Shown here in pieces: positions 2,163-51,909 of a stretch of DNA of 64,000 nt; within the stretch, counting starts at the first letter, position 1, and each line of letters opens with the position of its first letter. Source of the stretch: Escherichia coli. GTDB lineage: Bacteria > Pseudomonadota > Gammaproteobacteria > Enterobacterales > Enterobacteriaceae. The DNA lies in NCBI GenBank assembly GCA_032372955.1, contig GCA_032372955.1_4725.1; one strand, written 5' to 3'. The translations under genes were made by a program, and so were the position numbers. Below the pieces are notes generated by a model that had not been told where the DNA came from, made no database searches, and was given only the letters and a program-made list of their open reading frames with translations.

Positions 2163-3464
2163 ATGGAAAACGTGTTACAACAACCCATGACATCGTTGTT
2201 TCAAGGGATTGATGATGAACCTGTAGAATCGTTCGGTATCGCTGGCAACGTTCTCGATGCCAGTAATATTGAGAATCAGTTTCACTCAATCGACGAAACA
2301 AACACGGTGATGAAAGAAGGTGAACAACACCTTCAAACATTAAATAAACTCAGGCTGGATATTGTCCCAAACATGGCTGAAGTTGAAGAACGCGATATCA
2401 GCACCATCAAACATATCGCATCGACCGCAGCAGCCGGAATGGGAATGGACCCAAACCACATCATCGAGGGCCTGGAAGAGGAAACTTCCAGCGGGATGAG
2501 CTTGAACATGGAAAGTTTTGACAAGACCGCAAAAGAAGCAACCCGAGCATTATGGCTTTACATGAACGAATTGTACCGCTACGCGATCGATATCTGCAAT
2601 CGTTGTTATCGTCGATTCGTTCGTCAGGTGAAGCCGTTATTAAAGAAAGCGGCTGCGTTGAAAACTATTTCCGAATACGATGTTAATGAAGATAACGCAT
2701 TCTGGGAGAACTTTCCTTACAACTGGCGATATCTTCATCCGAAAGGCGGTGCGGTAAACAGTATTGCTGATCTACGGCAAACCGCAGAAAACATCGTAAT
2801 GAACACAGGAATCCTCGCAGCATGGCATCGTCAACTCGATCCGTTATTAATGCAGCTACTAAAAGCACCGTCAGTGGATAACAAAGAAGGTATCGCTGCA
2901 GAAAACGAAGCCTGTTGGGAGAATATTCTCGAGGTCATCAACGATGCGTTATGCGAGAAGCCGTTAAAGCCTACCGGAACAGACGATATCGTCGTTGACG
3001 TACCTGTTGGTGCTTCCTATCTTAAAGTACACAACATCGAAGACGCAACAGGAACGCAATTCAGCGTTGTGTGGGAAGCCGTATCTTTCCAATCGGCAAA
3101 AGATGGATTCCGTTTCTTACCGTTAAACGATGTTATCGACGGAACCAACGCGATCATCAACGCATTAAGTACGTTATGGTCTACGCTACGACAGTTGGAA
3201 TTTAAACGTTGTCTTGAAGCAAGCCTTGCCGACCAGGACGAATGGATTCAACCTTACGAGCGTTTGCTACAACAGATGGACAACAACGATACCGCATCAT
3301 CCGCTATCGTTCAACGTGTGGGTATCGCGCGTAACGTCGTCGGCTTCCAGGCGGTTGCTTTTGCCCGATTCCTGTTAACTGTCTGCGACGTCATCGACGG
3401 TCTTAACGATTATCTTGACGCGCATCTCGAACTTGAGGAAACCAGCAATGCTGCAGACCTATGA
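2163..3464 (+). CDS. hypothetical protein, member 2 of left-end paralogue trio
   Basis: 433-aa ORF, AGGAG RBS; IKHIASTAAAGMGM motif paralogous to the 725 ORF. Confidence 0.7.
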   Translation: MENVLQQPMTSLFQGIDDEPVESFGIAGNVLDASNIENQFHSIDETNTVMKEGEQHLQTLNKLRLDIVPNMAEVEERDISTIKHIASTAAAGMGMDPNHIIEGLEEETSSGMSLNMESFDKTAKEATRALWLYMNELYRYAIDICNRCYRRFVRQVKPLLKKAAALKTISEYDVNEDNAFWENFPYNWRYLHPKGGAVNSIADLRQTAENIVMNTGILAAWHRQLDPLLMQLLKAPSVDNKEGIAAENEACWENILEVINDALCEKPLKPTGTDDIVVDVPVGASYLKVHNIEDATGTQFSVVWEAVSFQSAKDGFRFLPLNDVIDGTNAIINALSTLWSTLRQLEFKRCLEASLADQDEWIQPYERLLQQMDNNDTASSAIVQRVGIARNVVGFQAVAFARFLLTVCDVIDGLNDYLDAHLELEETSNAADL

Positions 3465-4554
3465 TGGACAGATTCAAGCGTTAAGCTTGTTAAAAACATT
3501 ACCTGTGCCAGAGACAGCAACGCAACGACAAATTCACCAGCTTATTTATCAGCAGGCGGGCGGTATGCTGCCGACCAGTTATACCACAGAAAGTGCTGAT
3601 CTCCTCACGATGGAATCGTACAATCAGCTTGCGATGAAAATTATCAAAGCTATCATCGATGCGATCTGGACAACGTTGCGGAACATTACTGCGTTTATCG
3701 CCAGGTTTATCGATCGTAGTCGCGCACTACAGCTCGAACTCAGCAATATCCGTCGTCACTACACAAAAGCCGTTGGTCGTAAACCCATCGCGCAAAGCTT
3801 CGAAGCTTCGACGACGCTGGCCCCACACTTACGGTATGGGAACAGTTTTGGGTTCGATTTCACAACCGGGAATACGCTATACAAACAGAATTTAGCAATC
3901 GCTGAATATCTCTTGTCTTCGTCGTTCCGTGATGATTTCAAGCAGTTCGCTAATACGTTAGATAGAGCGCTCGACATTATCTTAAAACAGACGGATACCG
4001 CATTAATCGATGTGATTAACCGTGATGCGTACACGTTATTGCATAAAGTCTACAGTACGCTGAACGAATCGAGACTTGTCAATGTAACGTTACTGGGCAA
4101 CCGTACGCTACGACTCGATCAGGTTACCGCCTCAGGTTCCGGATCAATTCAACAGTCCCTCGCCATTCAATCTGCACGGTTTGAAGTCCAGGATGTACCG
4201 TCCATTGAACGGGATATGGTGGTTACAACGCCAACATTAGAACAAGTTGGTGTGCTACTCGAGTCTGTAAATACGGGTGTTGATTTGCTGGTTAGTTACC
4301 ATCGTAAAAAGTACGCCAACGAGTTACTCGAAATCGCAGGGAATCTACAAGCAAAACTTAACGACGTTTATCGTCAACAAGGTCAGTTGTCAGTTGCTAC
4401 TGCTTCTGATGATGCTATGGTAGCCCTTTCTCGATACCTTACAGCGTATACCGCGTGGATCAAGGTGCCGCTTGTGGGCTATGCCGAGTTCTTTACGAAT
4501 TCAACAGCGGCTATGCTTGATGTCTCTCGCGAGGCGCTGAAATATTACTTTTAA
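3448..4554 (+). CDS. hypothetical protein, possible third paralogue
   Basis: Start moved to ATG 3448 (GAGGA RBS); the track start at 3415 overlaps the upstream gene by 50 nt. Weak IHQLIYQQAGGM similarity to neighbours. Confidence 0.6.
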   Translation: MLQTYDGQIQALSLLKTLPVPETATQRQIHQLIYQQAGGMLPTSYTTESADLLTMESYNQLAMKIIKAIIDAIWTTLRNITAFIARFIDRSRALQLELSNIRRHYTKAVGRKPIAQSFEASTTLAPHLRYGNSFGFDFTTGNTLYKQNLAIAEYLLSSSFRDDFKQFANTLDRALDIILKQTDTALIDVINRDAYTLLHKVYSTLNESRLVNVTLLGNRTLRLDQVTASGSGSIQQSLAIQSARFEVQDVPSIERDMVVTTPTLEQVGVLLESVNTGVDLLVSYHRKKYANELLEIAGNLQAKLNDVYRQQGQLSVATASDDAMVALSRYLTAYTAWIKVPLVGYAEFFTNSTAAMLDVSREALKYYF

Positions 4555-11893: not shown

Positions 11894-13261
11894 ATGGATT
11901 ACAAACAGACGCCGTTAGGACGGTATATCGGTACATTTGCGCAGGAAGCAGTTGCTGTTGCGTATAAAGTCACCGCGGAATTAATCACGCCGTCAATGAC
12001 GGTGTCTGTTCCTTTAGTGACTCAAGTCCACACGTATCGAGACTATGAACGTAACGCAGGAGATGAACTTTATATCTCTGTAAAGTTCCCGCCTGGCAGT
12101 TACGGAAAATACATCTTACCGTACCAACAACAACTTAAAATGCGTATCATCGTGCAGGCATACAGCCTGATGCGTGGACAACGCCAAACCGTAGACGATG
12201 CCGCACAAGCTTACGTCTACCGAGCGGTTTGTTTAACAACCGTAGACAGTCGTATGTCTGCTACCGACGAACGTACCGCAACAGATTCTTCGAAGAAAGA
12301 CTACGAACAAATGGTCGATCTTCAATTTCAACTGTTCGATCCTGTTCTTGAAAGCTTCATGCAATCAGAAACCGGTGAAAACTATACTGGGTCGAAAGTG
12401 TTGGATGTGTTGCGCCTTGAATTCAGCAAGATACTTTCTGCGGTTGAAGCCGACACCGGATTCAAAATGCAGGGCGTGGACATTGTTGCGCCGAATAACG
12501 ACAATCTGTTCAAGTTGCTTATTCTTCCGCACGGTACCAACGCAATGGATCTCGTAGACAAAATCCAGAACCAGGTCGGTATTTATTCAGCGGACGTAGG
12601 TTGTTATTATCAATCCCCGTATCTGTATATTTATCCTCTCTACGACGAAACCCGTTTCTCTGACGGTCGTCGCACGGCTATCTTTTACAACTACCCTGCC
12701 GATATGTTTCCAGGCATGGACAAGACCTGGATCAATCGTGACAAATACGTGGAAATTGCATGTACGAGAGGGGCGTCGGTAAGCGACATCAATAACGCGG
12801 CTTCGTTGTTAGGTAATGCGGGTGGGCGTTTTGTTTCGGCAAGTCAGATGAGTCAGGGAATGACATTATCAAAAGGAGGCGATACGATAATCAGTCGTAC
12901 TGTAAACGTTAGCGAGTACGTAACTGAAGAACGTAGCGATAACGTGAAGGTGGCGAAAGGGATGGGACGCGTAACCGATAACCGATGGCGTGAATTAAGT
13001 AATACTGCTGGATTACGCGGCAGGACAATGCAGTTGGTGTGGGAATACGCAAACATGGATATGTTGTATCCCGGCATGCCTGCTAAAGTTGTGTGGATGC
13101 AGGATAACAATCTCTGCGAAGCATACGGGGTTATCATGCGTACCGATTGTGCTGTTACGATGGCAGGTTCTTCTGTACGTGAACCACAGTGGACATGCCA
13201 TGGTACGGTCACGTTATGGCTTGCACCAGAAAAAGACAACACCGTTCGTCCAACCGTTTAA
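11894..13261 (+). CDS. hypothetical protein
   Basis: 455-aa ORF beginning 2 nt after the previous stop. Confidence 0.65.
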   Translation: MDYKQTPLGRYIGTFAQEAVAVAYKVTAELITPSMTVSVPLVTQVHTYRDYERNAGDELYISVKFPPGSYGKYILPYQQQLKMRIIVQAYSLMRGQRQTVDDAAQAYVYRAVCLTTVDSRMSATDERTATDSSKKDYEQMVDLQFQLFDPVLESFMQSETGENYTGSKVLDVLRLEFSKILSAVEADTGFKMQGVDIVAPNNDNLFKLLILPHGTNAMDLVDKIQNQVGIYSADVGCYYQSPYLYIYPLYDETRFSDGRRTAIFYNYPADMFPGMDKTWINRDKYVEIACTRGASVSDINNAASLLGNAGGRFVSASQMSQGMTLSKGGDTIISRTVNVSEYVTEERSDNVKVAKGMGRVTDNRWRELSNTAGLRGRTMQLVWEYANMDMLYPGMPAKVVWMQDNNLCEAYGVIMRTDCAVTMAGSSVREPQWTCHGTVTLWLAPEKDNTVRPTV

Positions 13262-13265
13262 TATT

Positions 13266-13297
13266 CCCTCTCCCTTCCCTTACGGGTTGGGAGAGGG
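13266..13297 (+). terminator. conserved CCTCC-armed hairpin element followed by CTTATGCTG
   Basis: CCCTCTCCC-TT-CCC-TTAC-GGG-TT-GGGAGAGGG. Confidence 0.5.
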
Positions 13298-13340
13298 CTT
13301 ATGCTGTCTTATTTCGCATTACTCCAGTTTATTTCGCGAC

Positions 13341-13356
13341 TACATTACCTAGGTGA
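13341..13356 (+). promoter_or_regulatory. conserved promoter-like motif TACATTACCTAGGTGA (copy A)
   Basis: Identical 16-mer recurs at 19821; related copies at 48000 and 60503; all intergenic, upstream of + strand genes. Confidence 0.45.
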
Positions 13357-13558
13357 TAAGAGCGGTTACTGTTGTCGCTGTAAATTTCTCTTAATAATCG
13401 AGGATACAGTCATGGCCTTATTAATACGCGACCCGTCAGCATACGAAAACACGCGTTATAACCATAACCAGTTCGGCAATAATTTCTAACAAAGAACGAT
13501 CAATCTATGCATTGATTCTTCTATCCGCAATCCACCTAACATAGAAAGGTAAAATACG

Positions 13559-14128
13559 ATGTTTAATCCAGAAATCATGATTCTTGATCCTTGGTACCTC
13601 AACAAACTTCCAGGAATCAAAATGCCAGGCGATCCTCACGCATTCGATTTGATGGTCGTTGCCGAAGTTACCAGCAATACGGTTAACACCATCGACGATG
13701 ATGAGGTTCCTGTTGAAGAGGTGTTCTCTGTTACGACGACATTACTGGAAAGTCGAGAGCTGACCGAAAACGGCAGCGCCGATGAAATCATTCCTATCGA
13801 TGGTGAGATGGAGATCATGTTAACACAGGTCGAGTTGCACCATCGTGTCGCACCAACAAAAGACACGCCTTATGACAATGAACCTGCAGAACAACCTGAT
13901 GAAAACGGTCGAGTGAAACTTGCTGACATCGACGACGATGCTCTTGAAGATATCGACGAAAACGAAGAAACGAACTTCTACCAAGCTGAAGCGAAAGAAG
14001 CGTTTGATAAAGCGGTTCAGCATGATCGACGTATCACCGAGAAGATGATCCAACAACAACTTATCGGTAAACGTCTTAAGCTCGAATTCGCAAGCGGGGT
14101 GCTTACTACCTGGTCACTCATCGTCTAA
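13559..14128 (+). CDS. highly acidic hypothetical protein
   Basis: 189-aa ORF, AAAGG RBS; large D/E excess; sits downstream of promoter-like motif at 13341. Confidence 0.6.
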   Translation: MFNPEIMILDPWYLNKLPGIKMPGDPHAFDLMVVAEVTSNTVNTIDDDEVPVEEVFSVTTTLLESRELTENGSADEIIPIDGEMEIMLTQVELHHRVAPTKDTPYDNEPAEQPDENGRVKLADIDDDALEDIDENEETNFYQAEAKEAFDKAVQHDRRITEKMIQQQLIGKRLKLEFASGVLTTWSLIV

Positions 14129-14197
14129 AACCGAAACAACGTTTTCATTTCCAATCACATACTCAACAATCTAAATCCAATTAAGAGGACAACATTT

Positions 14198-14599
14198 ATG
14201 TTTAATATTCTTAGTGTACCGCGTTCCCCTGTCAGTTCTTACTTCGGTATTATGACCAGTAAAGAACACAACGTGGAATATACTGTTATCGCTAAAGATC
14301 CATCACCGATCAACGTAACGTTTGCTGAAGGTACTACCGAACTCGTTCCGTTAAATGGTGAATTCAGTAAACCTGTTAACGGCGTCTACGAACTTATCAC
14401 TCGCGATCCGAATAACAACGCGACCTACCGTGTGGTGTGTGCGTTCAACAATAACAAATTGGTTATTGTTGCGGATAGCCGTGGGTTATCGTGGATGGCT
14501 GAGGAAGGCACACATCGTTACTACGAAGAATGCTTACGAACCGCAGGCATCTACGATCTGGTAATGGACGCCCGTGCTAAAAACGACCGGATGTTTTAA
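14198..14599 (+). CDS. hypothetical protein
   Basis: 133-aa ORF with AAGAGGA RBS. Confidence 0.55.
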   Translation: MFNILSVPRSPVSSYFGIMTSKEHNVEYTVIAKDPSPINVTFAEGTTELVPLNGEFSKPVNGVYELITRDPNNNATYRVVCAFNNNKLVIVADSRGLSWMAEEGTHRYYEECLRTAGIYDLVMDARAKNDRMF

Positions 14600-14605
14600 A
14601 TTATC

Positions 14606-14932
14606 ATGATTACTCGAGAAATCATTTACGACGCTATTATCGAATGCCGCCATCGCGTCATGCGTGGAACGGTGTATAACTACCACTTAAACAACATTAT
14701 CAGTGAATGTACGGCGGTGATGACTAGCGCGCTGGGTAAACCTAGCGCTATCGCACTCTATCCAAACATCACTGAACAGGAGCAAATCAATATCGAAAAC
14801 CAACGTCGAGTGAATCGCCAATACGATGTAACAGCCATGCACGCATGGCTTATCGTTGCAGCGAAACTCAACACGCTTCTCACTGAGAACGGCTGGAAAT
14901 TTTCACCTAATGAATTCATGACAATAAGTTAA
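14606..14932 (+). CDS. hypothetical protein
   Basis: 108-aa ORF 6 nt after the previous stop; no clear RBS. Confidence 0.45.
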   Translation: MITREIIYDAIIECRHRVMRGTVYNYHLNNIISECTAVMTSALGKPSAIALYPNITEQEQINIENQRRVNRQYDVTAMHAWLIVAAKLNTLLTENGWKFSPNEFMTIS

Positions 14933-14947
14933 TCAAAGCGGTCATAA

Positions 14948-15002
14948 CCCCTCCTCCTTCCCTTACGGGTTGGAGGAGGGAACCGCACAATCTTTTTTTT
15001 TT
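14948..15002. terminator. conserved hairpin element plus T-run between convergent genes
   Basis: CCCCTCCTCC-TT-CCC-TTAC-GGG-TT-GGAGGAGGG then 10 T at 14993-15002. Confidence 0.6.
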
Positions 15003-15006
15003 GCGT

Positions 15007-16617
15007 TTAAAATTCTAAATCAAATTGTAATTCATTACTCGGTGCTGCGTTTTCATCGAACTTGTTCCACGGACCTTTACCTCCCTCGGAGACAGGTTGT
15101 CCGCCAACCTTGCGGCAATATACTGCTTTCTTACCGTAATCATCAGGAAGCATCCCGATGGTTTGGAATGGCATCGCGAAATGTTTGTCTTCAGGTTTCG
15201 TTGAACCGTTATCCGGTTGACGGTCTTTCCCTAATGCAAAGACCTGCCAGCTTTGACGTTTGCCGGGTTCCTTAACGATATCAACAATCACTTCAAGGTC
15301 AATCTCGCGGTCAATCCCTTTACAACCATCCCAGTAACTTAAACCTGCGACCTGGTCAACGAACTCTTCATCGTTACCATCACGTGCACGCATCTTCGCA
15401 TCGGATGACAGCTGGTGTACGGTCATGCCTAAAATACGTTTAACGCTGCAGAGGTTACGGACTTTGTTAAAGAGTTCTTGGAGCCATGCGCCGGTCGGCC
15501 CATTTCTATCCAGCCCTTCCGATGAGAACATTTTCAGATAGTCAATGAACAACGCCATGACTTCATAACCCATGCGTTCGAAATGGTCGATGAGATTAGC
15601 GAGTTGTTTATAACTCATCCCATCAACACGACGCATACAAACAGAGAAACCCGCATCATTGAACACCTTCAACACATAACGTGATGCCTCGCGAGGGTCA
15701 ATCTTACGAATATCGACATATTCGCCCGTTTCCTGTTCTCGCATGTTCTTGTATATTTGAAGCGTGTTTTCTTCCACTTCGTTTTCTGTCGACAAATGAA
15801 TCAGTAATGCTTTCTTTGCTCGCTCCGGAAAAAAGAAATGGGGTTTATTGTACAGTGCCAGATGCGTGAACAGTTTTAACAACACACCTGACTTGTTCCG
15901 GTGCTGCATCGCACCAATCAGTCCTAAGGTACCGCGACGTAAAACACCGACCGACCCCAACATTTTATTAAAACCTTGCCAGCCGGTTACAAACCCACCT
16001 TCAGGACTGTTACGTTCCATCGCTTTGACGAACATACGTTCAACTTTCTCGATATCGTCTTCACTGTCAGCGATAAAGCCGTCAATCATACACGACATCT
16101 CTTCGGGATTTTCGGTATCCATTTCGATACTGTCTAGCGATAATTTCAAATTCGCCATCGCATCGAAAAATTCTTTATCCCCAAGTCGCCCGTTACTGAT
16201 ATCCATGTACGTGTTTCTAAAGGTTTCGAAAACACGACGACGGGTAATCAGATTACGTAATTCGTTGTAATAGAGTGAACAGACCTTACTGATATGAGCG
16301 TCGTCTTCGATATCGTACAGTCCGTCGGCGAGAATCTCGTAAAGATTGCTTTGCTCAAGGCAATCTAAACGTATCCTTTGTAACAACTGTTGTTTATCGA
16401 AAGGTTCCGATAATGGTTGTTCCAACATCCAATGAATGGTATTCATCAGGTTGTTGAAAACCTCTCTATCTACGTCTGTAGCGAGATGGTTTTTCGGGGG
16501 TTCGACTTTATCTAAGACGGATTTAACATGTTCGATCGTACTGGGATCGGGATGGTTCAATTGTGCATTACGAAACAGTAACGTAATAATCTTAATGGCT
16601 ATCTGTTTTGGGTCCAT
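15007..16617 (-). CDS. DnaB-family replicative helicase-like protein
   Basis: Start chosen at MDPKQ (AAAGGA RBS). RecA-like C-terminal domain: Walker B FIDYLKMF, HQLSS (cf. DnaB SQLNR), DGCKGIDREIDLEVIV (cf. ESGxIEQDADxV); P-loop looks degenerate (GAMQHRNKSG). Confidence 0.55.
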   Translation of the reverse strand: MDPKQIAIKIITLLFRNAQLNHPDPSTIEHVKSVLDKVEPPKNHLATDVDREVFNNLMNTIHWMLEQPLSEPFDKQQLLQRIRLDCLEQSNLYEILADGLYDIEDDAHISKVCSLYYNELRNLITRRRVFETFRNTYMDISNGRLGDKEFFDAMANLKLSLDSIEMDTENPEEMSCMIDGFIADSEDDIEKVERMFVKAMERNSPEGGFVTGWQGFNKMLGSVGVLRRGTLGLIGAMQHRNKSGVLLKLFTHLALYNKPHFFFPERAKKALLIHLSTENEVEENTLQIYKNMREQETGEYVDIRKIDPREASRYVLKVFNDAGFSVCMRRVDGMSYKQLANLIDHFERMGYEVMALFIDYLKMFSSEGLDRNGPTGAWLQELFNKVRNLCSVKRILGMTVHQLSSDAKMRARDGNDEEFVDQVAGLSYWDGCKGIDREIDLEVIVDIVKEPGKRQSWQVFALGKDRQPDNGSTKPEDKHFAMPFQTIGMLPDDYGKKAVYCRKVGGQPVSEGGKGPWNKFDENAAPSNELQFDLEF

Positions 16618-17277: not shown

Positions 17278-17426
17278 CGTAGGGAAAAGTTATGCGGCAT
17301 TTTTAGTGTTGTATCACGACCTCAATAACGGTAAGTGTTTACTGATACTATAGTGGCGCATGCACGCGTGTACGCTATGGTCTATCGACCGACTTATATA
17401 AGTTAATTCTGTAAAGGATACTTTCA

Positions 17427-19649
17427 ATGAATGATAAAACCCTTCTTAGCCAACAGGTCGCGGCCACTCGCCAGTTCCTGACCGCTAATGGTAGCAAACC
17501 AGCAGACAAAGGTCTGGAGAACACCTTCCTGTCTATGGAATCTGCTTCTAAGGTTGATTTCAAATCCATGGACAAACTGGTTAACGAAATGGATGTTAAG
17601 AGCTTCAGCAGCGACATCCGTAAAGCAGAAGAACCGGTTCTGTCCATGCTGGGCTTCGAAACCACCACTCCGGAAGAGAAGCAGCGTATTGAAGAACAGC
17701 TGTTCACCATGAACGCACAGCAGGCTCGTGCAGCAGCACTGATCATGCTGGCTCATGGCAACCCGGTGGAATATGCTAAACAAGCACGTTCCATGAACAT
17801 CAGCACCACTCCGTCTGGCCGTGAAGTTGACAGCTCTAACTTCGTCATGATGGCCGCCGATTCCTGCGGTTGCGAATCTGAAGAACTGGTTCAGCTGTCC
17901 TACGACCAGAAAGAACTGCGTGACATGATGCCGTACTCCGTTGTGTTCAACGTGAAGGCTTCTCGTCTGAGCCGCATGGGTAACGAACTGTACAACACCA
18001 TCGTTCTGGCTCCGAACCAGATCGGTTACGACGTATCTTTCCGTCGTCCGCTGGTGTTCAACCACCTGCGTCGTAACGCTGACGGTACTCCGGCTGATTG
18101 GGTACGTCGTCCGCTGCTGGATGCGTTCATGTACAACGACGTTCTGTCCAACGACGTGACCGATCTGCATCCGATCTATCGTGCTGACGATGCTAACGCG
18201 CAGTACTTCGTTGACAAAACTATCGTTGCTCCGCGTGACATCGAAATTAAAGGCGTAACTTACAAAACGTCTTACCTGGCCGTTGATAAACTGATCGACA
18301 TGATCGGTATTGCTGAAGACGATAGCATCCTGGCTAACGGTTACAGCGACAACACCGACGCGCTGGACGCTCAGATCACGCTGACCAAAATCCTGGTGGA
18401 AATCAAATCCACCAAACACAGCAAAACCTCTTACGTACCGTTCGACGTATCTGGTCTGATCACCAACGGTTTCCAGAAATCCCTGGAAGGCGACTTCCGC
18501 AAAATGACCCTGGCGTTCGACACCCACTCCATCTTCGTTGATGAGAACACCGTTGACGTTAAAGGTGCACGAGCTGAAGCGCTGCAGGACATCATCGATT
18601 CGAAATCCGCTGCTCAGCTGGCAATCGAAGTTTACGGTTCTTCCAACGTAGAGAAAGCCGGTCTGCGTGTTAACGGCGCTAACGCTGAACTGTATCGTCT
18701 GGTCGATCGTGACAACATCGAACAACCGCGTAAGGGCGAAGAGTTCAAACAGCTGGCTGAAGACCTGAGCTTCAAACTGGTTGGTTACGAACTGCGTATC
18801 CGCCGTAACAACAGCAACCGTCGTGAGCGTGGTAAGCACCTTGACTTCAACATGAAGCAAGAACGTTACGCAATCGGCCTGCTGGCTCCGTTCTCCATTC
18901 CTCGTCCGCTGGATTGGGAAGAAAACGCTGCTGACCTGGACGTTCTGATCCAAGCTGCTAACGCACGTTTCGACAACCTGATGGTTGAGAAACTGTTCAG
19001 CTACAAAGACGCACTGAAAGCGGTTGCGACCTCTCGCTTCCGTCAGTTCGGCGACATCCAGATCGAAGGTTTCGGTCGTTACCTGATCCGTCCGTGGTTC
19101 GAAGAAATCAATCTGGACCTGGAGAAATCTGTTCAGGGTACCACCACTGCAGAACGTCGTGCTGAAGTGTCCGCTGCGATCATGAACGTGATTCGTGAGA
19201 TGGCATACCGCATGTACTCCGAGTCTGGTTATCAGCCAGCTCTGCAGCTGCTGTCTTCCAACGCTGATGAGAAACCGCGTTGCGTAGTAGCAACTGACAA
19301 CTACATCCCGCAGTTCCTGCAGACCGATGGCGATTTCCGTACCGTTGGTGTGAGCTTCAACTTCGTGGTTGTAGATAACCCGAACGTCATGCTGCGCGAT
19401 AAGATCTTCGTGACCCTGTCTCGTGGTATCCAGGGTTCTCCGGATCCGCTGACCTTCGGTATGTTCCTGTATGTACCGGAACTGGTATCTGTTGCTCAGG
19501 TTACCCGTAACGGTCAGGTTTCTAAAGAAACCATGGTTCAGCCGCGCTGCCGCTTCGTTAACAACTGCCCGCTGCTGGGTCTGATTAACGTTGTGAACCT
19601 GCGTAAGGTCTACACTGAAAACATCAAGCTGCCTGTTCAGACTAACTGA
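17427..19649 (+). CDS. abundant virion structural protein, probable major capsid protein
   Basis: 740-aa ORF, AAAGGA RBS. Extreme bias to high-expression codons (ctg, cgt, ggt, aac, ttc), unlike neighbours; size fits jumbo-phage capsid proteins. Identity not verified. Confidence 0.55.
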   Translation: MNDKTLLSQQVAATRQFLTANGSKPADKGLENTFLSMESASKVDFKSMDKLVNEMDVKSFSSDIRKAEEPVLSMLGFETTTPEEKQRIEEQLFTMNAQQARAAALIMLAHGNPVEYAKQARSMNISTTPSGREVDSSNFVMMAADSCGCESEELVQLSYDQKELRDMMPYSVVFNVKASRLSRMGNELYNTIVLAPNQIGYDVSFRRPLVFNHLRRNADGTPADWVRRPLLDAFMYNDVLSNDVTDLHPIYRADDANAQYFVDKTIVAPRDIEIKGVTYKTSYLAVDKLIDMIGIAEDDSILANGYSDNTDALDAQITLTKILVEIKSTKHSKTSYVPFDVSGLITNGFQKSLEGDFRKMTLAFDTHSIFVDENTVDVKGARAEALQDIIDSKSAAQLAIEVYGSSNVEKAGLRVNGANAELYRLVDRDNIEQPRKGEEFKQLAEDLSFKLVGYELRIRRNNSNRRERGKHLDFNMKQERYAIGLLAPFSIPRPLDWEENAADLDVLIQAANARFDNLMVEKLFSYKDALKAVATSRFRQFGDIQIEGFGRYLIRPWFEEINLDLEKSVQGTTTAERRAEVSAAIMNVIREMAYRMYSESGYQPALQLLSSNADEKPRCVVATDNYIPQFLQTDGDFRTVGVSFNFVVVDNPNVMLRDKIFVTLSRGIQGSPDPLTFGMFLYVPELVSVAQVTRNGQVSKETMVQPRCRFVNNCPLLGLINVVNLRKVYTENIKLPVQTN

Positions 19650-19736
19650 ACTACCGTAGCTGCTTCGTTGGACGATATTCTTGACGACAACGTTGCGGAT
19701 GGTTTCATTGCACCGGACATTCATCCGGCACCGTGA
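19650..19736 (+). other. in-frame 28-codon open extension after the capsid TGA stop
   Basis: No stop from 19650 to TGA at 19734-19736, same frame as capsid ORF; encodes TTVAASLDDILDDNVADGFIAPDIHPAP. Confidence 0.4.
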
Positions 19737-19748
19737 TACATAAGTCAG

Positions 19749-19778
19749 CCTCCCTCAGCCCGTAAGGGTTGGGGGAGG
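19749..19778 (+). terminator. conserved hairpin element variant followed by TTTCTATG
   Basis: CCTCCC-TCAG-CCC-GTAA-GGG-TTGG-GGGAGG, downstream of the capsid gene and its extension. Confidence 0.5.
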
Positions 19779-19820
19779 TTTCTATGCCGTTTACGTTGTG
19801 AATAGAAAAAATTTGACGCT

Positions 19821-26185: not shown

Positions 26186-26205
26186 TAAATTAAATAGCGC
26201 ATAGC

Positions 26206-26264
26206 CCTTCTCCCCTTCCCTCATCGGGTTGGGGAGAAGGTTAACTATGTGTTATTTTTTTTTT
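26206..26264. terminator. conserved hairpin element plus T-run between convergent genes
   Basis: CCTTCTCCCC-TT-CCC-TCATC-GGG-TT-GGGGAGAAGG, TTAACTATG, then 10 T at 26255-26264. Confidence 0.6.
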
Positions 26265-35300: not shown

Positions 35301-35308
35301 CAGCATAT

Positions 35309-35341
35309 CCCCTCCTCCTTCCCTGTTGGGTTGGAGGAGGG
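35309..35341. terminator. conserved hairpin element between convergent genes
   Basis: CCCCTCCTCC-TT-CCC-TGTT-GGG-TT-GGAGGAGGG followed by TTATG and T-rich sequence. Confidence 0.55.
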
Positions 35342-35351
35342 TTATGTTTGG

Positions 35352-39461: not shown

Positions 39462-39947
39462 ATGAAGCTATCAACACTGCTTTCTGAATGGGGGACGTAT
39501 CTTACCCAAAAGAACCCTCACGAGGTAACGCCAACACAAACAGATGTCTACGTTAAGACCGAAGTGGCTTCTAAACTTGCACCGCTTGTTACCCAGTGTT
39601 ACCTTCCCTTTCTTTTTTTCAGTCGCGATCGTATCGTACCGTCTGGTTCTTACAACAACGGAAGAATAAGTTTGTCGGAAGGTGTTGCCGAATACAATAC
39701 CAAAGAGGGTGTTGTTCCTGCAACGACGTTGGATGTGTCTGGTGTAAGTGAATCTGTTGGCTGGGTTTATCTTGCTGTCACCGATAGCGGTTTCGCCTAT
39801 ACGTTAACGGATAGCAACAGTAGTTACAAAAACGTGATGCGTATCGGGACATGGAACAAAGTTCAGGGTACCGTGCACCTCGCGGCAACACGTAAGATCG
39901 GCACCGTTGAAATCGACGACGGACAGCTTCCTGACTCGCCTATTTAA
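39462..39947 (+). CDS. tail-fibre-associated protein
   Basis: 161-aa ORF; N-terminal KNPHEVTPTQTDV motif; follows previous gene by 4 nt. Confidence 0.5.
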   Translation: MKLSTLLSEWGTYLTQKNPHEVTPTQTDVYVKTEVASKLAPLVTQCYLPFLFFSRDRIVPSGSYNNGRISLSEGVAEYNTKEGVVPATTLDVSGVSESVGWVYLAVTDSGFAYTLTDSNSSYKNVMRIGTWNKVQGTVHLAATRKIGTVEIDDGQLPDSPI

Positions 39948-45682: not shown

Positions 45683-46225
45683 TTAGCCAACAACGCTAAC
45701 GGTCGGTTTCACGAAGCCATCAGCTACGTTATCCGCCAGAACGGTTGCCAGGTCATCTTTCGGTGCAGCTGCGTAGGTCAGTGCAACCTGCAGAGTGCCG
45801 GTATATACCAGGCCATTCTCGATCGCATTCAGAGTTACCTGACCAACAGTACCTGCAGACAGCTGGAAGGTTTCTTCATTGATTTCACCGGTCAGGGAAG
45901 CCAGACCGAATTTGGTGACCAGCTTGCTTACCAGCTCGGAAGCCTTAATGCTGTCGGTACCGTGCGGCAGTTCGAAAGTAACATCGCCAGTTACATCAGC
46001 GAAAACTTCGGACAGAGCCAGACGATCGTAGTAGAACTGCTGAGTACCCTGCAGGTTAGCTGCTTCAGCTGCAGCATCCAGCTGAATAACGGTGTTCTTT
46101 TCATGTTCGGAAGACGTCTGCGGAGTACCGAACTGCAGTTCTTCTTCGGTCAGCGTGCGGGTTGCTTTGGTGTTGATAAGATCAAGCAGAAGGGATTTCG
46201 CTGCTTTGTTAAAGTCTAAGGCCAT
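45683..46225 (-). CDS. abundant small protein, short member of the YYDR/LxYTG paralogue family
   Basis: Start chosen at internal ATG (MALDFNK) with GAGGACA RBS; high-expression codon usage like the capsid gene; motifs FYYDRLAL, TKFGLASLT, LVYTGTLQV. Confidence 0.65.
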   Translation of the reverse strand: MALDFNKAAKSLLLDLINTKATRTLTEEELQFGTPQTSSEHEKNTVIQLDAAAEAANLQGTQQFYYDRLALSEVFADVTGDVTFELPHGTDSIKASELVSKLVTKFGLASLTGEINEETFQLSAGTVGQVTLNAIENGLVYTGTLQVALTYAAAPKDDLATVLADNVADGFVKPTVSVVG

Positions 46226-46366
46226 GATAATGTGTCCTCTGATTTTTGATGGTCGAAAAGGAGATTCGGAGTCGTTCTCCATAATATTTACATTAATATA
46301 AAATATATTAATTTCTGTAAACACTTACATCTTTTGAGAGTGATGTAACAACCATAGAGGTAGAAA

Positions 46367-47260: not shown

Positions 47261-47276
47261 TTTTAATTAATCTCTC

Positions 47277-47308
47277 CCTTCCTCCTTCCCTGTTGGGTTG
47301 GAGGAAGG
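47277..47308 (+). terminator. conserved hairpin element followed by TTTATG
   Basis: CCTTCCTCC-TT-CCC-TGTT-GGG-TT-GGAGGAAGG. Confidence 0.55.
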
Positions 47309-48097
47309 TTTATGTTTGTGATTATTCTTCTCTTTTATAATTTCTAATGATAAGATTAAGTACCTGGAGTAAAAGTTTACAGATGTTGTAAATGTATTTG
47401 GAAAGTAAAATTTCCACGACCTCGGCCCCTTCGGGGGACGGGGGAGGAGCGAAGTCCTTTAGAGACGAGCAACAGGATAACTCTAAGAAAAAGAAAAACT
47501 AAACGAGCGAAGCGAGTTTATGTTTTTATCCTTAGAGTTATCAAGCTATAAGCGTAGCGTTAGCGTATAACGGTTATGTCGTATACGAATGCAATGAGTA
47601 TAGACGAGATACTCTGATGAACAACGTGAAGAAGAGTATCACAAATGTTTTTTGAGTTATCCGGATTTAACTAGCATGTAACGAAGTGTAATGCACAGAT
47701 GACATGTGTTACCGTTAAGGTAGTAAACACATGTTATCCATTGTTTTGAAGATAAGCTTATTAACTTACTTTTAAATCAATTTAAATATACAAACAACTT
47801 AAACATACCAAGATAAAACAATTGAACCTAAGATAAACAAGATAACTTAGACAATACACTTTTAACGAATACAGATAACATCTTACTTAAATCAAAATAC
47901 CTATCCTCGTTTACCTTCCTTGCTTGCAACACCTCTTCTAAATCCATCCCTTCTTAAGAAACAACAAAACCCTTACTGTAACACAAATCCTTTCACGACT
48001 ATATTACCTAAGTGATGCGTACGTACGATGTTCGTATTGCGTCAAATAGAACTCAATACGTTGTTTAATTAACGTGAAAAACAGAGGAACTTTTTAA
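47309..48097. other. 789-bp AT-rich non-coding region with inverted and direct repeats
   Basis: No ORF of 60 aa or more; 12-bp inverted repeat 47476-47487 / 47531-47542; five AGATAA copies 47750-47880; direct repeat CTTACTT(TT)AAATCAA at 47765 and 47882. Confidence 0.6.
48000..48015 (+). promoter_or_regulatory. conserved promoter-like motif TATATTACCTAAGTGA (copy C)
   Basis: Preceded by TTTCACGAC as in copy D; ~80 nt upstream of the 48098 gene cluster. Confidence 0.45.
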
Positions 48098-48880
48098 ATG
48101 AACGATGAAATCATTTTTGATACCATGTTTACTGGAGATGAATACCTGGCGTTACCGAGCGATGTTCAAAACGAATGCGTGAAGGTAGCATGCTACAGCG
48201 GCGGTCAGGCTGGGATGCGTGTACGTTGCGTTGACGGGACGAACGGGAAAGTTGTTTGGCGTGGTGCTCACACGTACCCTTACCTGCTTACCGGCAACAA
48301 GAATTGGTACGCTCATCGCAGCCAGCATCCTGCACGGATGAGCGCGAGCGGATTCGTGGTACGTGGTGCGTTGGATGAACGGGTGGAACGCATCGAGATC
48401 ACCGATCGCGCGTTCATCGATCAGCTTGCACAGGTTGCTTACGATGAGGGACGTGCAACAGGGCGATACGGTTGGTTGAAGGTGAACAGCGATACGCAAT
48501 TACAGGTAGGATTCCATCACGCGCTTCCTGGGTGGGCGAACCATACCGTTGGAACGTATTACACCAAAAAGCTTACCATGGTGAAACCTTACATGGCGGA
48601 TGCGAGCTTGGAGGCAACGGATCAGATGCATCAATTGCTTCGCATGTATTATCCACGGGTGGTGCATCCACTTGGGTTCGCTTGGGTCAGCGAAGTGCGC
48701 TACAACCCACGCAAGAAACGCGTTGAAGCGAAGGTGCTTAACGAACGTTGGTTACCGGTTGTGCAACCAGGGCTTGACGATGAATCCATCATGATGCGGG
48801 TAAGCCGAAGCCGGTTCGTACAATGGGATGCTACCATGCTACAACGCCCACAACACGTTACAGGAGAAACGTTCGCATGA
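48098..48880 (+). CDS. hypothetical protein
   Basis: 260-aa ORF, AGAGGAA RBS; first gene after the AT-rich region and promoter-like motif. Confidence 0.6.
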   Translation: MNDEIIFDTMFTGDEYLALPSDVQNECVKVACYSGGQAGMRVRCVDGTNGKVVWRGAHTYPYLLTGNKNWYAHRSQHPARMSASGFVVRGALDERVERIEITDRAFIDQLAQVAYDEGRATGRYGWLKVNSDTQLQVGFHHALPGWANHTVGTYYTKKLTMVKPYMADASLEATDQMHQLLRMYYPRVVHPLGFAWVSEVRYNPRKKRVEAKVLNERWLPVVQPGLDDESIMMRVSRSRFVQWDATMLQRPQHVTGETFA

Positions 48881-50548: not shown

Positions 50549-50977
50549 ATGCAAATTAAATGGCCTGAATCAGCAGTAACTGCAGCGCGCGTTGGTCTTT
50601 ATCATTCGCTGGTTGCTCAGCATACCAGCTTACATCGCACCCTATCACTTTTACGCGAAGACGAAAAACTACGTGAACACATTCAGCCGATCTCAGCATC
50701 AATGAATGCGAACACGTTGTCTATGCGTTGCGTTCGATTGACTTTTGTGTGTACCACGTTAGGAAAGACGTTGCTTGAGGCTGCCTATCTTCGTTGTTGC
50801 GAAAGCACGACGTTCACCGACGATATGGTGTTGTCGATCGAGATGTATTGTCAGACAAATGGAATACGTCAACCGCAGATAGTTTGGAAAATATACGGAT
50901 TGACACCAAAAGTAATCAGCACGAAGTTAGATGCGGTTGCTAATAGCCTTAATGAAATTTTGAAAGAAGGAATTTGA
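50549..50977 (+). CDS. hypothetical protein
   Basis: 142-aa ORF, GAGGAA RBS. Confidence 0.55.
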   Translation: MQIKWPESAVTAARVGLYHSLVAQHTSLHRTLSLLREDEKLREHIQPISASMNANTLSMRCVRLTFVCTTLGKTLLEAAYLRCCESTTFTDDMVLSIEMYCQTNGIRQPQIVWKIYGLTPKVISTKLDAVANSLNEILKEGI

Positions 50978-51837: not shown

Positions 51838-51852
51838 TAAATAAACCATAAA

Positions 51853-51909
51853 CCTTCCTTCCCCGGCCTTTACGGCTAGGGAAGGAGGTTGTATAGCATT
51901 TCTTTTTTT
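51853..51909. terminator. imperfect member of hairpin family plus T-run between convergent genes
   Basis: CCTTCCTTCCCCGGCC-TTTAC-GGCTAGGGAAGGAGG then TCTTTTTTTATT. Confidence 0.45.

What the first reader, a model, noticed from the sequence alone, without database searches (positions are those of the whole stretch)
13559..14128. Highly acidic 189-aa protein downstream of the promoter-like motif: DNA-mimic / anti-restriction candidate
About a quarter of residues are D/E (e.g. IDDDALEDIDENEETNF), giving a strongly negative net charge. Small acidic early phage proteins are often DNA mimics (Ocr-like anti-restriction or anti-CRISPR). Its placement after a putative early promoter fits that role, but this is inference only.
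Basis: inference. Interest (0 to 1): 0.45.

Follow-up and report, generated by a model that had tools for sequence, protein, structure and literature searches.

The report
Acidic early protein of Goslar-like phage
The ORF is a real, very acidic gene of a phage closely related to the nucleus-forming E. coli phage Goslar; it is switched on early and is not found in the virus particle, but nothing yet shows that it is a DNA mimic or blocks restriction enzymes.

Summary
The window is 96.6% identical to jumbo phage Goslar. ORF 13559-14128 is Goslar gp046, annotated "hypothetical protein".

**Observation confirmed.** It has 189 aa, 22% D+E, net charge -27 and pI 4.2. It is the most acidic gene in the window and second of about 245 ORFs in Goslar. 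dN/dS is 0.10.

**Early expression is real.**
- A 15-nt motif (13342-13356) matches the element upstream of the Goslar and PhiKZ nuclear-shell genes.
- In published Goslar RNA-seq, gp044-047 persist (log2FC about +1.1) when infection is arrested at the early vesicle stage. Flanking structural genes fall 8-40-fold.
- gp046 is absent from the published virion proteome.

**Family.** It occurs only in three Goslar-like lineages (27-29% identity), always as a gp046-gp045-gp044 trio. Acidity is conserved (net -27 to -44).

**Structure.** The predicted structure is a beta-rich domain, a disordered acidic loop, a helix and a C-terminal hairpin. It has no sequence or fold match to Ocr, ArdA, Dip or anything else.

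**Verdict.** This is an ordinary, lineage-specific early accessory protein. A polyanionic decoy role is plausible but untested. Classical anti-restriction is unlikely, because these phages enclose their DNA.

The parts
13266..13297 (+). GC-rich hairpin (terminator-like) immediately after the stop of the tail spike-cap gene (gp048 homologue, 11894-13261). It closes the late structural transcription unit.
   Evidence: RNA fold gives -27.4 kcal/mol, z = -5.2. It belongs to a recurrent hairpin family, CCTCC..TTCCCTTACGGGTTGG..GGAGG, seen at about 10 intergenic sites. Similar elements are annotated as terminators in Goslar. Transcript behaviour changes from late to early across this point.
13326..13356 (+). 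Early (virion RNA polymerase) promoter element tttatttcgcgactACATTACCTAGGTGA.
   Evidence: Four exact copies of the 15-mer occur in the window against 0.46 expected. There are 13 PWM sites in Goslar, all on the gene strand, including one upstream of chimallin gp246. The same A-run/TTT/TATATTAC architecture lies upstream of PhiKZ chimallin, which has an early-promoter TSS. Every site checked marks a late-to-early switch in RNA-seq. The element is conserved ahead of gp046 homologues in L002, L003 and L006.
13301..13489 (+). ORF annotated in Goslar as gp047 (62 aa). It is most likely not a gene but the promoter plus 5' leader of the gp046 transcript.
   Evidence: The promoter motif lies inside it. 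dN/dS against Goslar is 1.29, compared with 0.0-0.1 for gp044-046. It is absent in L006, where the promoter lies 54 nt before the gp046 homologue. It has no family hit.
13559..14128 (+). CDS of the acidic protein (Goslar gp046 orthologue), 189 aa plus stop.
13559..13849 (+). aa 1-97: predicted beta-rich folded domain, net charge -16.
   Evidence: AF2 with a 20-sequence alignment gives block pLDDT 78-90. The net charge of -16 to -18 is conserved in all lineages.
13850..13966 (+). aa 98-136: disordered acidic loop, net charge -12. Its sequence and length vary between lineages.
   Evidence: pLDDT 35-46. The loop is 30-48 aa long with net -11 to -22 in homologues, and alignment is poor apart from a D-x-D/E-rich stretch.
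13967..14125 (+). aa 137-189: long helix (137-168) plus the conserved C-terminal beta-hairpin G-x-K/R-L-x-LEF-x-x-G-V/I-L. This part is near-neutral.
   Evidence: pLDDT 71-90. G170, L175, E176, F177, G180 and L182 are invariant. Net charge is -1 and +2.
14198..14599 (+). Second gene of the early operon (gp045 orthologue, 133 aa), function unknown.
   Evidence: It is syntenic and 41-42% identical in both other lineages, early in RNA-seq, and has no family or PDB match.
14606..14932 (+). Third gene of the early operon (gp044 orthologue, 108 aa), function unknown.
   Evidence: It is syntenic and 39-40% identical in both other lineages, early in RNA-seq, and has no family or PDB match.
14938..15001 (.). 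Strong hairpin followed by a T10 run. It is the terminator of the early operon, facing the convergent DnaB-like helicase gene (15007-16617, - strand).
   Evidence: RNA fold gives -32.2 kcal/mol, z = -5.3. gp043 on the other side behaves as a late gene, with log2FC -3.9 to -5.5.

Best explanation
**Shown**
- The ORF is the first gene of a self-contained three-gene early operon: promoter 13326-13356, then gp046, gp045 and gp044, then terminator 14938-15001.
- The operon is inserted between late virion genes of a Goslar-type nucleus-forming phage.
- It is transcribed by the injected virion RNA polymerase while the genome is still in the early infection vesicle. Its per-nucleotide mRNA level is comparable to that of the nuclear-shell gene.
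- The protein is not packaged in virions.
- It is a non-core accessory gene restricted to Goslar-like phages.
- What selection keeps is extreme negative charge, both on a folded beta-rich domain and in a disordered loop, plus a neutral helix and hairpin at the C-terminus.

**Inferred**
- After translation in the host cytoplasm, it acts stoichiometrically as a polyanionic decoy. It would occupy the basic nucleic-acid-binding surface of a partner protein.
- That partner is most likely a host RNA- or DNA-binding factor, or a cytoplasmic immune sensor or nuclease.
- The conserved fold and C-terminal hairpin would supply specificity or oligomerisation.
- The target is unknown. A type I restriction enzyme is not the favoured target, because these phages physically shield their DNA.
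For: - **Identity and reality of the gene:**
- **Promoter motif:** enrichment and conservation. The orthologous element upstream of PhiKZ chimallin is, and its early TSS.
- **Early expression:** log2FC in ChmA knockdown vs control is gp046 +1.06 to +1.19, gp045 +1.07 to +1.20 and gp044 +1.0 to +1.3. The flanks fall: gp048 -3.2, gp043 -3.9 to -5.5, MCP -4.
- **Expression level:** 668-827 reads per 570 nt for gp046 against 3459-3541 per 1896 nt for chimallin.
- **Bounding hairpins:**
- **Not in virions:**
- **Not in the core-genome table:**
- **Variable small-gene region downstream of the spike-cap gene in other chimalliviruses:**
- **Narrow family with conserved acidity:**
- **Structure model:** pLDDT 72, pTM 0.62.
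- **Precedents for acidic phage decoys:** PhiKZ Dip uses acidic patches against the RNA-binding segments of RNase E (PMC4980113). SPO1 Gp44 uses a flexible acidic DNA-mimic domain against RNA polymerase (PMC8208478).
Against: - No partner, localisation or phenotype is known.
- There is no similarity to any characterised mimic.
- The charge geometry could not be analysed, and much of the charge lies in a disordered loop.
- Acidity alone is a weak predictor. The only more acidic Goslar ORF, gp168, is simply an abundant virion protein.
- dN/dS of 0.10 gives no sign of an arms race at short range.
- The strict co-conservation with gp045 and gp044 could equally mean a phage-internal complex.
- Early timing is shared by roughly half to 70% of Goslar genes.
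Confidence: 0.4

Rival explanations
1. Phage-internal role. gp046 works in a complex with gp045 and gp044 in an early phage process, such as the vesicle-to-nucleus transition or chaperoning of basic injected or DNA-binding phage proteins. The acidic loop would serve as a chaperone-like or solubility element rather than as a decoy for host proteins.
For: The trio is strictly syntenic in all three lineages. gp045 and gp044 are better conserved (39-42% identity) than gp046 (27-29%). All three genes are co-regulated. Purifying selection is strong (dN/dS 0.0-0.1). Acidic disordered regions act as charge-mimic chaperones for basic proteins in other systems (histone chaperones; PMC10987829, listed).
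Against: The genes are not part of the Chimalliviridae core genome and are absent from PhiKZ-like and Erwinia phages at this site. An essential step of the nucleus-forming cycle is therefore unlikely. There is no evidence that the three proteins interact.
Confidence: 0.3
2. One reading: an Ocr-like DNA mimic that blocks restriction-modification (or DNA-targeting CRISPR) enzymes.
For: It is small, has pI 4.2, is early and is non-virion. It lies in an accessory position. The folded domain itself carries net -16.
Against: There is no sequence or fold relation to Ocr, ArdA or other mimics, and the predicted fold is beta-rich. Chimallivirus DNA is enclosed in the EPI vesicle and then the nucleus, and is already protected from restriction and DNA-targeting CRISPR (abstracts, for example PMC11077065). 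A protein made only after injection adds little.
Confidence: 0.1
3. A virion-assembly factor or scaffold, suggested by its position among head, neck and tail genes and by the acidity typical of scaffolds.
For: Its neighbours are the tail adaptor, spike cap, vertex-binding protein and major capsid protein. Scaffolds are often acidic and absent from mature virions.
Against: It is transcribed with the early programme, while all flanking structural genes drop 8-40-fold in the vesicle-arrested state. It has its own promoter and terminators. It is absent from other chimalliviruses that share the same virion architecture.
Confidence: 0.04
4. A chance ORF or mis-annotation.
For: No database annotation or domain.
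Against: dN/dS is 0.096. Full-length homologues exist at 27-29% identity with conserved ends. It is transcribed, has a Shine-Dalgarno sequence, and gives a moderately confident fold prediction.
Confidence: 0.01

Closest known systems
T7 Ocr (gp0.3), DNA-mimic inhibitor of type I restriction enzymes
   Same: A small, very acidic (pI about 4) non-virion protein expressed at the very start of infection from a dedicated early promoter.
   Different: Ocr is an all-helical rigid dimer whose carboxylates trace bent B-DNA (PMC3439906; own knowledge). gp046 is predicted to be beta-rich with a disordered acidic loop, with no sequence or fold match. T7 DNA is exposed to restriction, whereas Goslar DNA is enclosed.
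PhiKZ Dip (gp37), inhibitor of the RNA degradosome
   Same: An accessory protein of a chimallivirus that acts in the host cytoplasm. It uses acidic patches to occupy RNA-binding segments of a host protein, RNase E (PMC4980113). It is lineage-specific rather than core.
   Different: There is no sequence or fold similarity. Dip's target and structure are established experimentally, and nothing is known for gp046. The two are of different size and architecture.
SPO1 Gp44, flexible DNA-mimic inhibitor of host RNA polymerase
   Same: A phage host-takeover protein in which a flexible, acidic, partly disordered segment does the mimicry, flanked by other small domains (PMC8208478). This is the closest analogy for a decoy built on a disordered acidic region.
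   Different: Gp44 has an N-terminal DNA-binding motif and a random-coil C-terminus. gp046 has an acidic beta domain and a C-terminal helix-hairpin. There is no homology, and the phage and host are different.
Goslar gp168 and other acidic virion-packaged proteins
   Same: The same genome and comparable net charge per residue.
   Different: gp168 is present at about 220 copies per virion. gp046 is undetected in virions and belongs to the early programme.

Membership tests
Ocr (T7 gp0.3) family | Sequence homology to Ocr | tested here: not met
   There is no Pfam, PHROG or NCBIfam hit at E<=1. A profile search of all PDB sequences at E<=10 gave one unrelated weak hit. Exhaustive phmmer and profile searches found only Goslar-like homologues.
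Ocr (T7 gp0.3) family | All-alpha fold forming a rigid DNA-shaped dimer | tested here: not met
Ocr (T7 gp0.3) family | Inhibits type I restriction-modification enzymes | not testable with these tools
   This needs plating or biochemical assays.
ArdA and other solved nucleic-acid mimics (ArdA, gp5.9, Gam, Arn, Dip, Acr mimics) | Sequence or fold similarity to any solved member | tested here: not met
Nucleic-acid-mimic decoys (functional class, polyphyletic) | Small size, large net negative charge, pI below about 5 | tested here: met
   189 aa, net -27, pI 4.19. This is conserved at net -27 to -44 in homologues.
Nucleic-acid-mimic decoys (functional class, polyphyletic) | Carboxylates displayed with phosphate-like spacing on a defined surface | tested here: inconclusive
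   The folded N-domain carries net -16, but 12 of the 27 net charges lie in a loop with pLDDT below 50. Model coordinates could not be analysed for geometry.
Nucleic-acid-mimic decoys (functional class, polyphyletic) | Competes with DNA or RNA for a nucleic-acid-binding protein | not testable with these tools
   No interaction data exist for Goslar gp046 in the papers searched.
Chimallivirus early (virion RNA polymerase) regulon | Early promoter element upstream on the coding strand | tested here: met
   The motif at 13342-13356 is enriched and conserved in three lineages. The same element lies upstream of Goslar chimallin and PhiKZ chimallin (early TSS).
Chimallivirus early (virion RNA polymerase) regulon | Transcript present when infection is arrested at the EPI-vesicle stage | tested here: met
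   The published Goslar RNA-seq table gives gp046 log2FC +1.06 to +1.19 in ChmA knockdown, while flanking late genes show -3 to -5.5. The data are for the 97%-identical Goslar orthologue, not this isolate.
Virion structural or scaffold proteins | Detected in purified virions, or co-expressed with structural genes | tested here: not met
   gp046 is absent from the complete Goslar protein sheet of the LFQ-MS table, which lists proteins down to about 0.1 copy per virion. Its expression is uncoupled from structural genes.
Chimalliviridae core genome | Listed among the conserved core genes | tested here: not met
   The core-genome table lists Goslar gp049, gp048 and gp043 but not gp044-047. No homologue exists in 288 other chimallivirus records that carry the neighbouring spike-cap gene.

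The most novel reading that the evidence does not exclude
gp046 founds a new fold family of nucleic-acid mimics. Nucleus-forming phages of enterobacteria would use it to neutralise a cytoplasmic RNA- or DNA-binding host factor that their shell cannot exclude. Candidate targets are RNase E or mRNA-level immunity, or a sensor that acts at the early infection vesicle. gp045 and gp044 would be partners.
Probability: 0.15. Interest if true: 0.6.

Novelty: new member of a known kind. Interest (0 to 1): 0.3.

Why it matters
Nucleus-forming phages hide their DNA, so the interesting question is which host activities they still have to disarm in the cytoplasm.

This protein is well expressed, early, non-virion and extremely acidic. 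It has no known fold and is confined to the E. coli-infecting Goslar lineage. That makes it a reasonable candidate for such a counter-measure, and Goslar has the tools to test it (dCas13d knockdown, GFP localisation).

On present evidence it is just one of many uncharacterised early accessory genes.

The more solid by-products are two:
- a defined early promoter element for Goslar-type phages that predicts the published early and late transcript boundaries;
- a likely mis-annotated gene, gp047.

Tried and rejected
- **Family libraries:** Pfam, PHROGs, NCBIfam and PADLOC scans of gp046, gp045, gp044 and gp047 gave nothing above threshold.
- **gp045 weak hits:** the sub-threshold Pfam hits (Gp49/HigB-like, E 0.015, and an arylsulfotransferase Ig-like domain, E 0.029) were not backed by a PDB profile search or a further homology search, so I dropped them.
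- **Single-sequence AF2:** useless, with pLDDT 36.
- **afdb50 fold library:** not available.
- **phmmer hit P0002:** a repetitive, unrelated sequence.
- **Erwinia phage Deimos-Minion:** it carries an acidic 131-aa protein downstream of its spike-cap gene, but hhalign shows no relation (probability 0.2%).
- **Extra genes in relatives:** Pfam on the additional genes in this early locus of related phages gave no hits, so there is no 'anti-defence island' signature.
- **JADA (the Avs5 trigger):** considered and set aside. It is described as an essential, Chimalliviridae-specific PhiKZ-type protein, and nothing links it to this Goslar-lineage-restricted gene.
- **Sigma-70 scan:** no promoter on the + strand upstream, and the simple terminator scan misses the hairpins because the T-run is absent or distant.
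- **tRNA and Rfam scans of the window:** empty.
- **Literature:** no paper mentions Goslar gp46 or gp046 by name.
- **PhiKZ promoter paper:** the original (PMC4178840) is not held, so I checked the PhiKZ sequence directly.

Full report
**Where the window comes from.** Megablast of 12500-15500 finds Escherichia phage vB_EcoM_Goslar at 96.6% identity over the whole query. Goslar is a 237-kb nucleus-forming jumbo phage (Chimalliviridae). ORF 13559-14128 is the orthologue of Goslar gp046 (YP_009820731.1, 'hypothetical protein', 97.4% aa identity).

- The ORF is 189 aa with an ATG start and GAAAGG 9 nt upstream.
- It has 42 D/E (22%) and 15 K/R, giving net -27 and pI 4.19.
- Against the other 55 genes of the window, its D+E fraction is z = +4.35. 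Genome-wide in Goslar it is the second most acidic of about 245 ORFs.
- It is under purifying selection (dN/dS 0.096 against Goslar).

**The family is narrow.**
- tblastn against 50,697 phage records finds only Goslar.
- An exhaustive phmmer scan of 1.84 billion representative proteins finds three real clusters.
- A profile search of 5.8 billion proteins finds 19 sequences. All are 189-197 aa, and they fall into three lineages at 27-29% identity to the window protein.
- The contigs carrying them are chimalliviruses, with a PhiKZ-type major capsid protein and a divergent DnaB.
- The gene always precedes homologues of gp045 and gp044, which are 39-42% identical and so better conserved than gp046.
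- gp044-047 are not in the published Chimalliviridae core-genome table, whereas flanking gp049, gp048 and gp043 are.
- In Erwinia phage Deimos-Minion and PhiKZ-like SL2, unrelated sets of small genes follow the spike-cap gene. This position is therefore a variable accessory region.

**The gene is early.**
- The stop codon of the spike-cap gene (13261) is followed by a strong hairpin at 13266-13297 (-27.4 kcal/mol, z = -5.2).
- Next comes tttatttcgcgactACATTACCTAGGTGA. The 15-mer occurs four times in the window, always on the + strand, against 0.46 expected.
- A weight matrix finds 13 sites in Goslar, all on the strand of the downstream gene. One lies 65 nt before the start codon of the nuclear-shell protein chimallin.
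- The sequence upstream of PhiKZ chimallin has the same architecture: AAAAAAATTTGAGATTTATATTACTAAATTGA against Goslar AAAAAATTTCAGGGTTATATTACCTAGGTGA. PhiKZ gene 54 is reported to have the early, virion-RNA-polymerase promoter motif at its primary start site (PMC8244752).
- The motif is conserved at the same junction in the divergent relatives. In L006 it lies 54 nt before the gp046 homologue. In L002 and L003 it directly follows the spike-cap gene, with three extra genes inserted before the homologue.
- Published RNA-seq settles the point. When chimallin is knocked down and infection stalls at the early vesicle, where only the injected polymerase is active, gp044-047 stay up while the flanks fall:

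| Gene | log2 fold change vs control |
|---|---|
| gp047 | +0.7 to +1.3 |
| gp046 | +1.06 to +1.19 |
| gp045 | +1.07 to +1.20 |
| gp044 | +1.0 to +1.3 |
| gp048 | about -3.2 |
| gp049 | -2.5 to -3.5 |
| gp043 | -3.9 to -5.5 |
| gp041 (MCP) | about -4 |

- The same late-to-early switch occurs at the motif copies before gp004, gp021, gp040, gp075, gp214 and gp246.
- Per nucleotide, gp046 mRNA reaches about two-thirds to four-fifths of the chimallin level.
- The operon ends at a hairpin (-32.2 kcal/mol) followed by T10, at 14938-15001.
- One caveat applies. 175 of 249 Goslar genes are already expressed at 5 min, so early timing is not very discriminating.

**The protein is not in the virion.** The LFQ mass-spectrometry table of purified Goslar virions lists phage proteins down to about 0.1 copy per particle. 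It includes trace gp045, gp049 and gp043. gp046 is not in it, and the Goslar protein sheet is complete in the stored text.

**Structure.**
- Without an alignment AF2 fails (pLDDT 36).
- With the 20-sequence alignment the best model reaches pLDDT 72 and pTM 0.62. It shows a beta-rich domain (aa 1-97), a disordered loop (98-136, pLDDT 35-46), a long helix (137-168) and a C-terminal beta-hairpin.
- Charge is conserved by region:

| Region | Net charge across lineages |
|---|---|
| N-domain | -16 to -18 |
| Loop | -11 to -22 |
| Helix | -1 to -5 |
| Hairpin | 0 to +2 |

- The loop varies in length and sequence. The hairpin motif G-x-K/R-L-x-LEF-x-x-G-V/I-L is nearly invariant.
- gp045 and gp044 are equally anonymous.

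**Interpretation.**
- The facts describe a well-expressed, early, non-virion, lineage-specific accessory protein whose selected property is polyanionic character on an otherwise novel scaffold.
- The most economical mechanism is a stoichiometric electrostatic decoy for a basic nucleic-acid-binding protein in the host cytoplasm. It would be analogous to PhiKZ Dip against RNase E (PMC4980113) or SPO1 Gp44 against RNA polymerase (PMC8208478). I put about 0.35-0.4 on this.
- A specifically Ocr-like anti-restriction role gets about 0.1. There is no structural or sequence support, and chimallivirus DNA is enclosed from the moment of injection.
- A phage-internal function in complex with gp045 and gp044 is a serious rival at about 0.3, because the trio is strictly co-conserved and under strong purifying selection.
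- A scaffold or assembly role is contradicted by the expression data.

**Novelty and score.** The gene is already deposited as a hypothetical protein, and its early expression sits unremarked in a supplementary table. It is a new, uncharacterised member of the familiar class of small acidic early phage accessory proteins. Interest is modest at 0.3. It would rise to about 0.6 if a host target were found.

Noticed in passing
window 13301-13489: The ORF annotated in Goslar as gp047 (62 aa) is probably not a gene. The early promoter motif lies inside it. dN/dS against Goslar is 1.29, compared with 0.0-0.1 for its neighbours. It is missing in the L006 relative. It looks like promoter plus 5' leader of the gp046 mRNA.
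   Followed up: partly
window 13342, 19822, 48001, 60504 (+ strand); Goslar 2552, 15052, 43251, 49717, 86690, 113782, 142785, 151619, 160776, 166054, 172963, 201929, 226680: The early promoter family tTTCACGgCTAyATTACyTArGTGA has 4 copies in the window (0.46 expected) and 13 in Goslar. Each copy checked coincides with a switch from late to early behaviour in published RNA-seq. The same element lies upstream of chimallin in Goslar and PhiKZ.
   Followed up: yes
window 13266-13297, 14938-14986, and about 8 other intergenic sites (e.g. 2015-2060, 19750-19790, 26205-26245, 35305-35345, 47275-47315, 51850-51895, 58890-58925, 63030-63075): A family of very stable GC-rich hairpins has a nearly identical core, CCTCC..TTCCCTTACGGGTTGG..GGAGG, and often lacks a U-tract. 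They sit at the ends of transcription units. The conserved loop and stem sequence suggests more than generic intrinsic termination.
   Followed up: partly
window 17427-19649 (+) and 17424-19724 (-): The major capsid protein gene contains no TTA, CTA or TCA codon in 740 codons. The other 55 genes use them at 3.0%, so 22 would be expected (P about 2e-10). This leaves a 766-codon stop-free antisense ORF in codon register. Either codon bias is extreme or the antisense frame is constrained.
   Followed up: partly
window 50549-50977, 39462-39947, 48098-48880, 45683-46282: Most genes are 97-100% identical in protein to Goslar. These four are only 57.7%, 83.5%, 86.9% and 90.5% identical, so they look like mosaic or fast-evolving accessory genes. 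Two of them lie in the early operon gp021-gp014. They are better arms-race candidates than gp046.
   Followed up: no
window 47261-48097: An 837-nt AT-rich spacer without an ORF ends in a copy of the early promoter at 48001. It has no tRNA and no Rfam match. It could hold a non-coding RNA or a replication or packaging element.
   Followed up: partly
L002/L003 6793-9966: In one related lineage, three extra genes of unknown function are inserted between the conserved promoter and the gp046 homologue. They encode proteins of 468, 446 and 103 aa, the last with a signal-peptide-like N-terminus. None has a Pfam hit.
   Followed up: partly
Goslar 152320-152682 (gp168): The only Goslar ORF more acidic than gp046 (net -0.175 per residue) is an abundant virion protein of unknown function, at about 220 copies per virion. 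Extreme acidity in this phage is therefore not specific to early cytoplasmic proteins.
   Followed up: no
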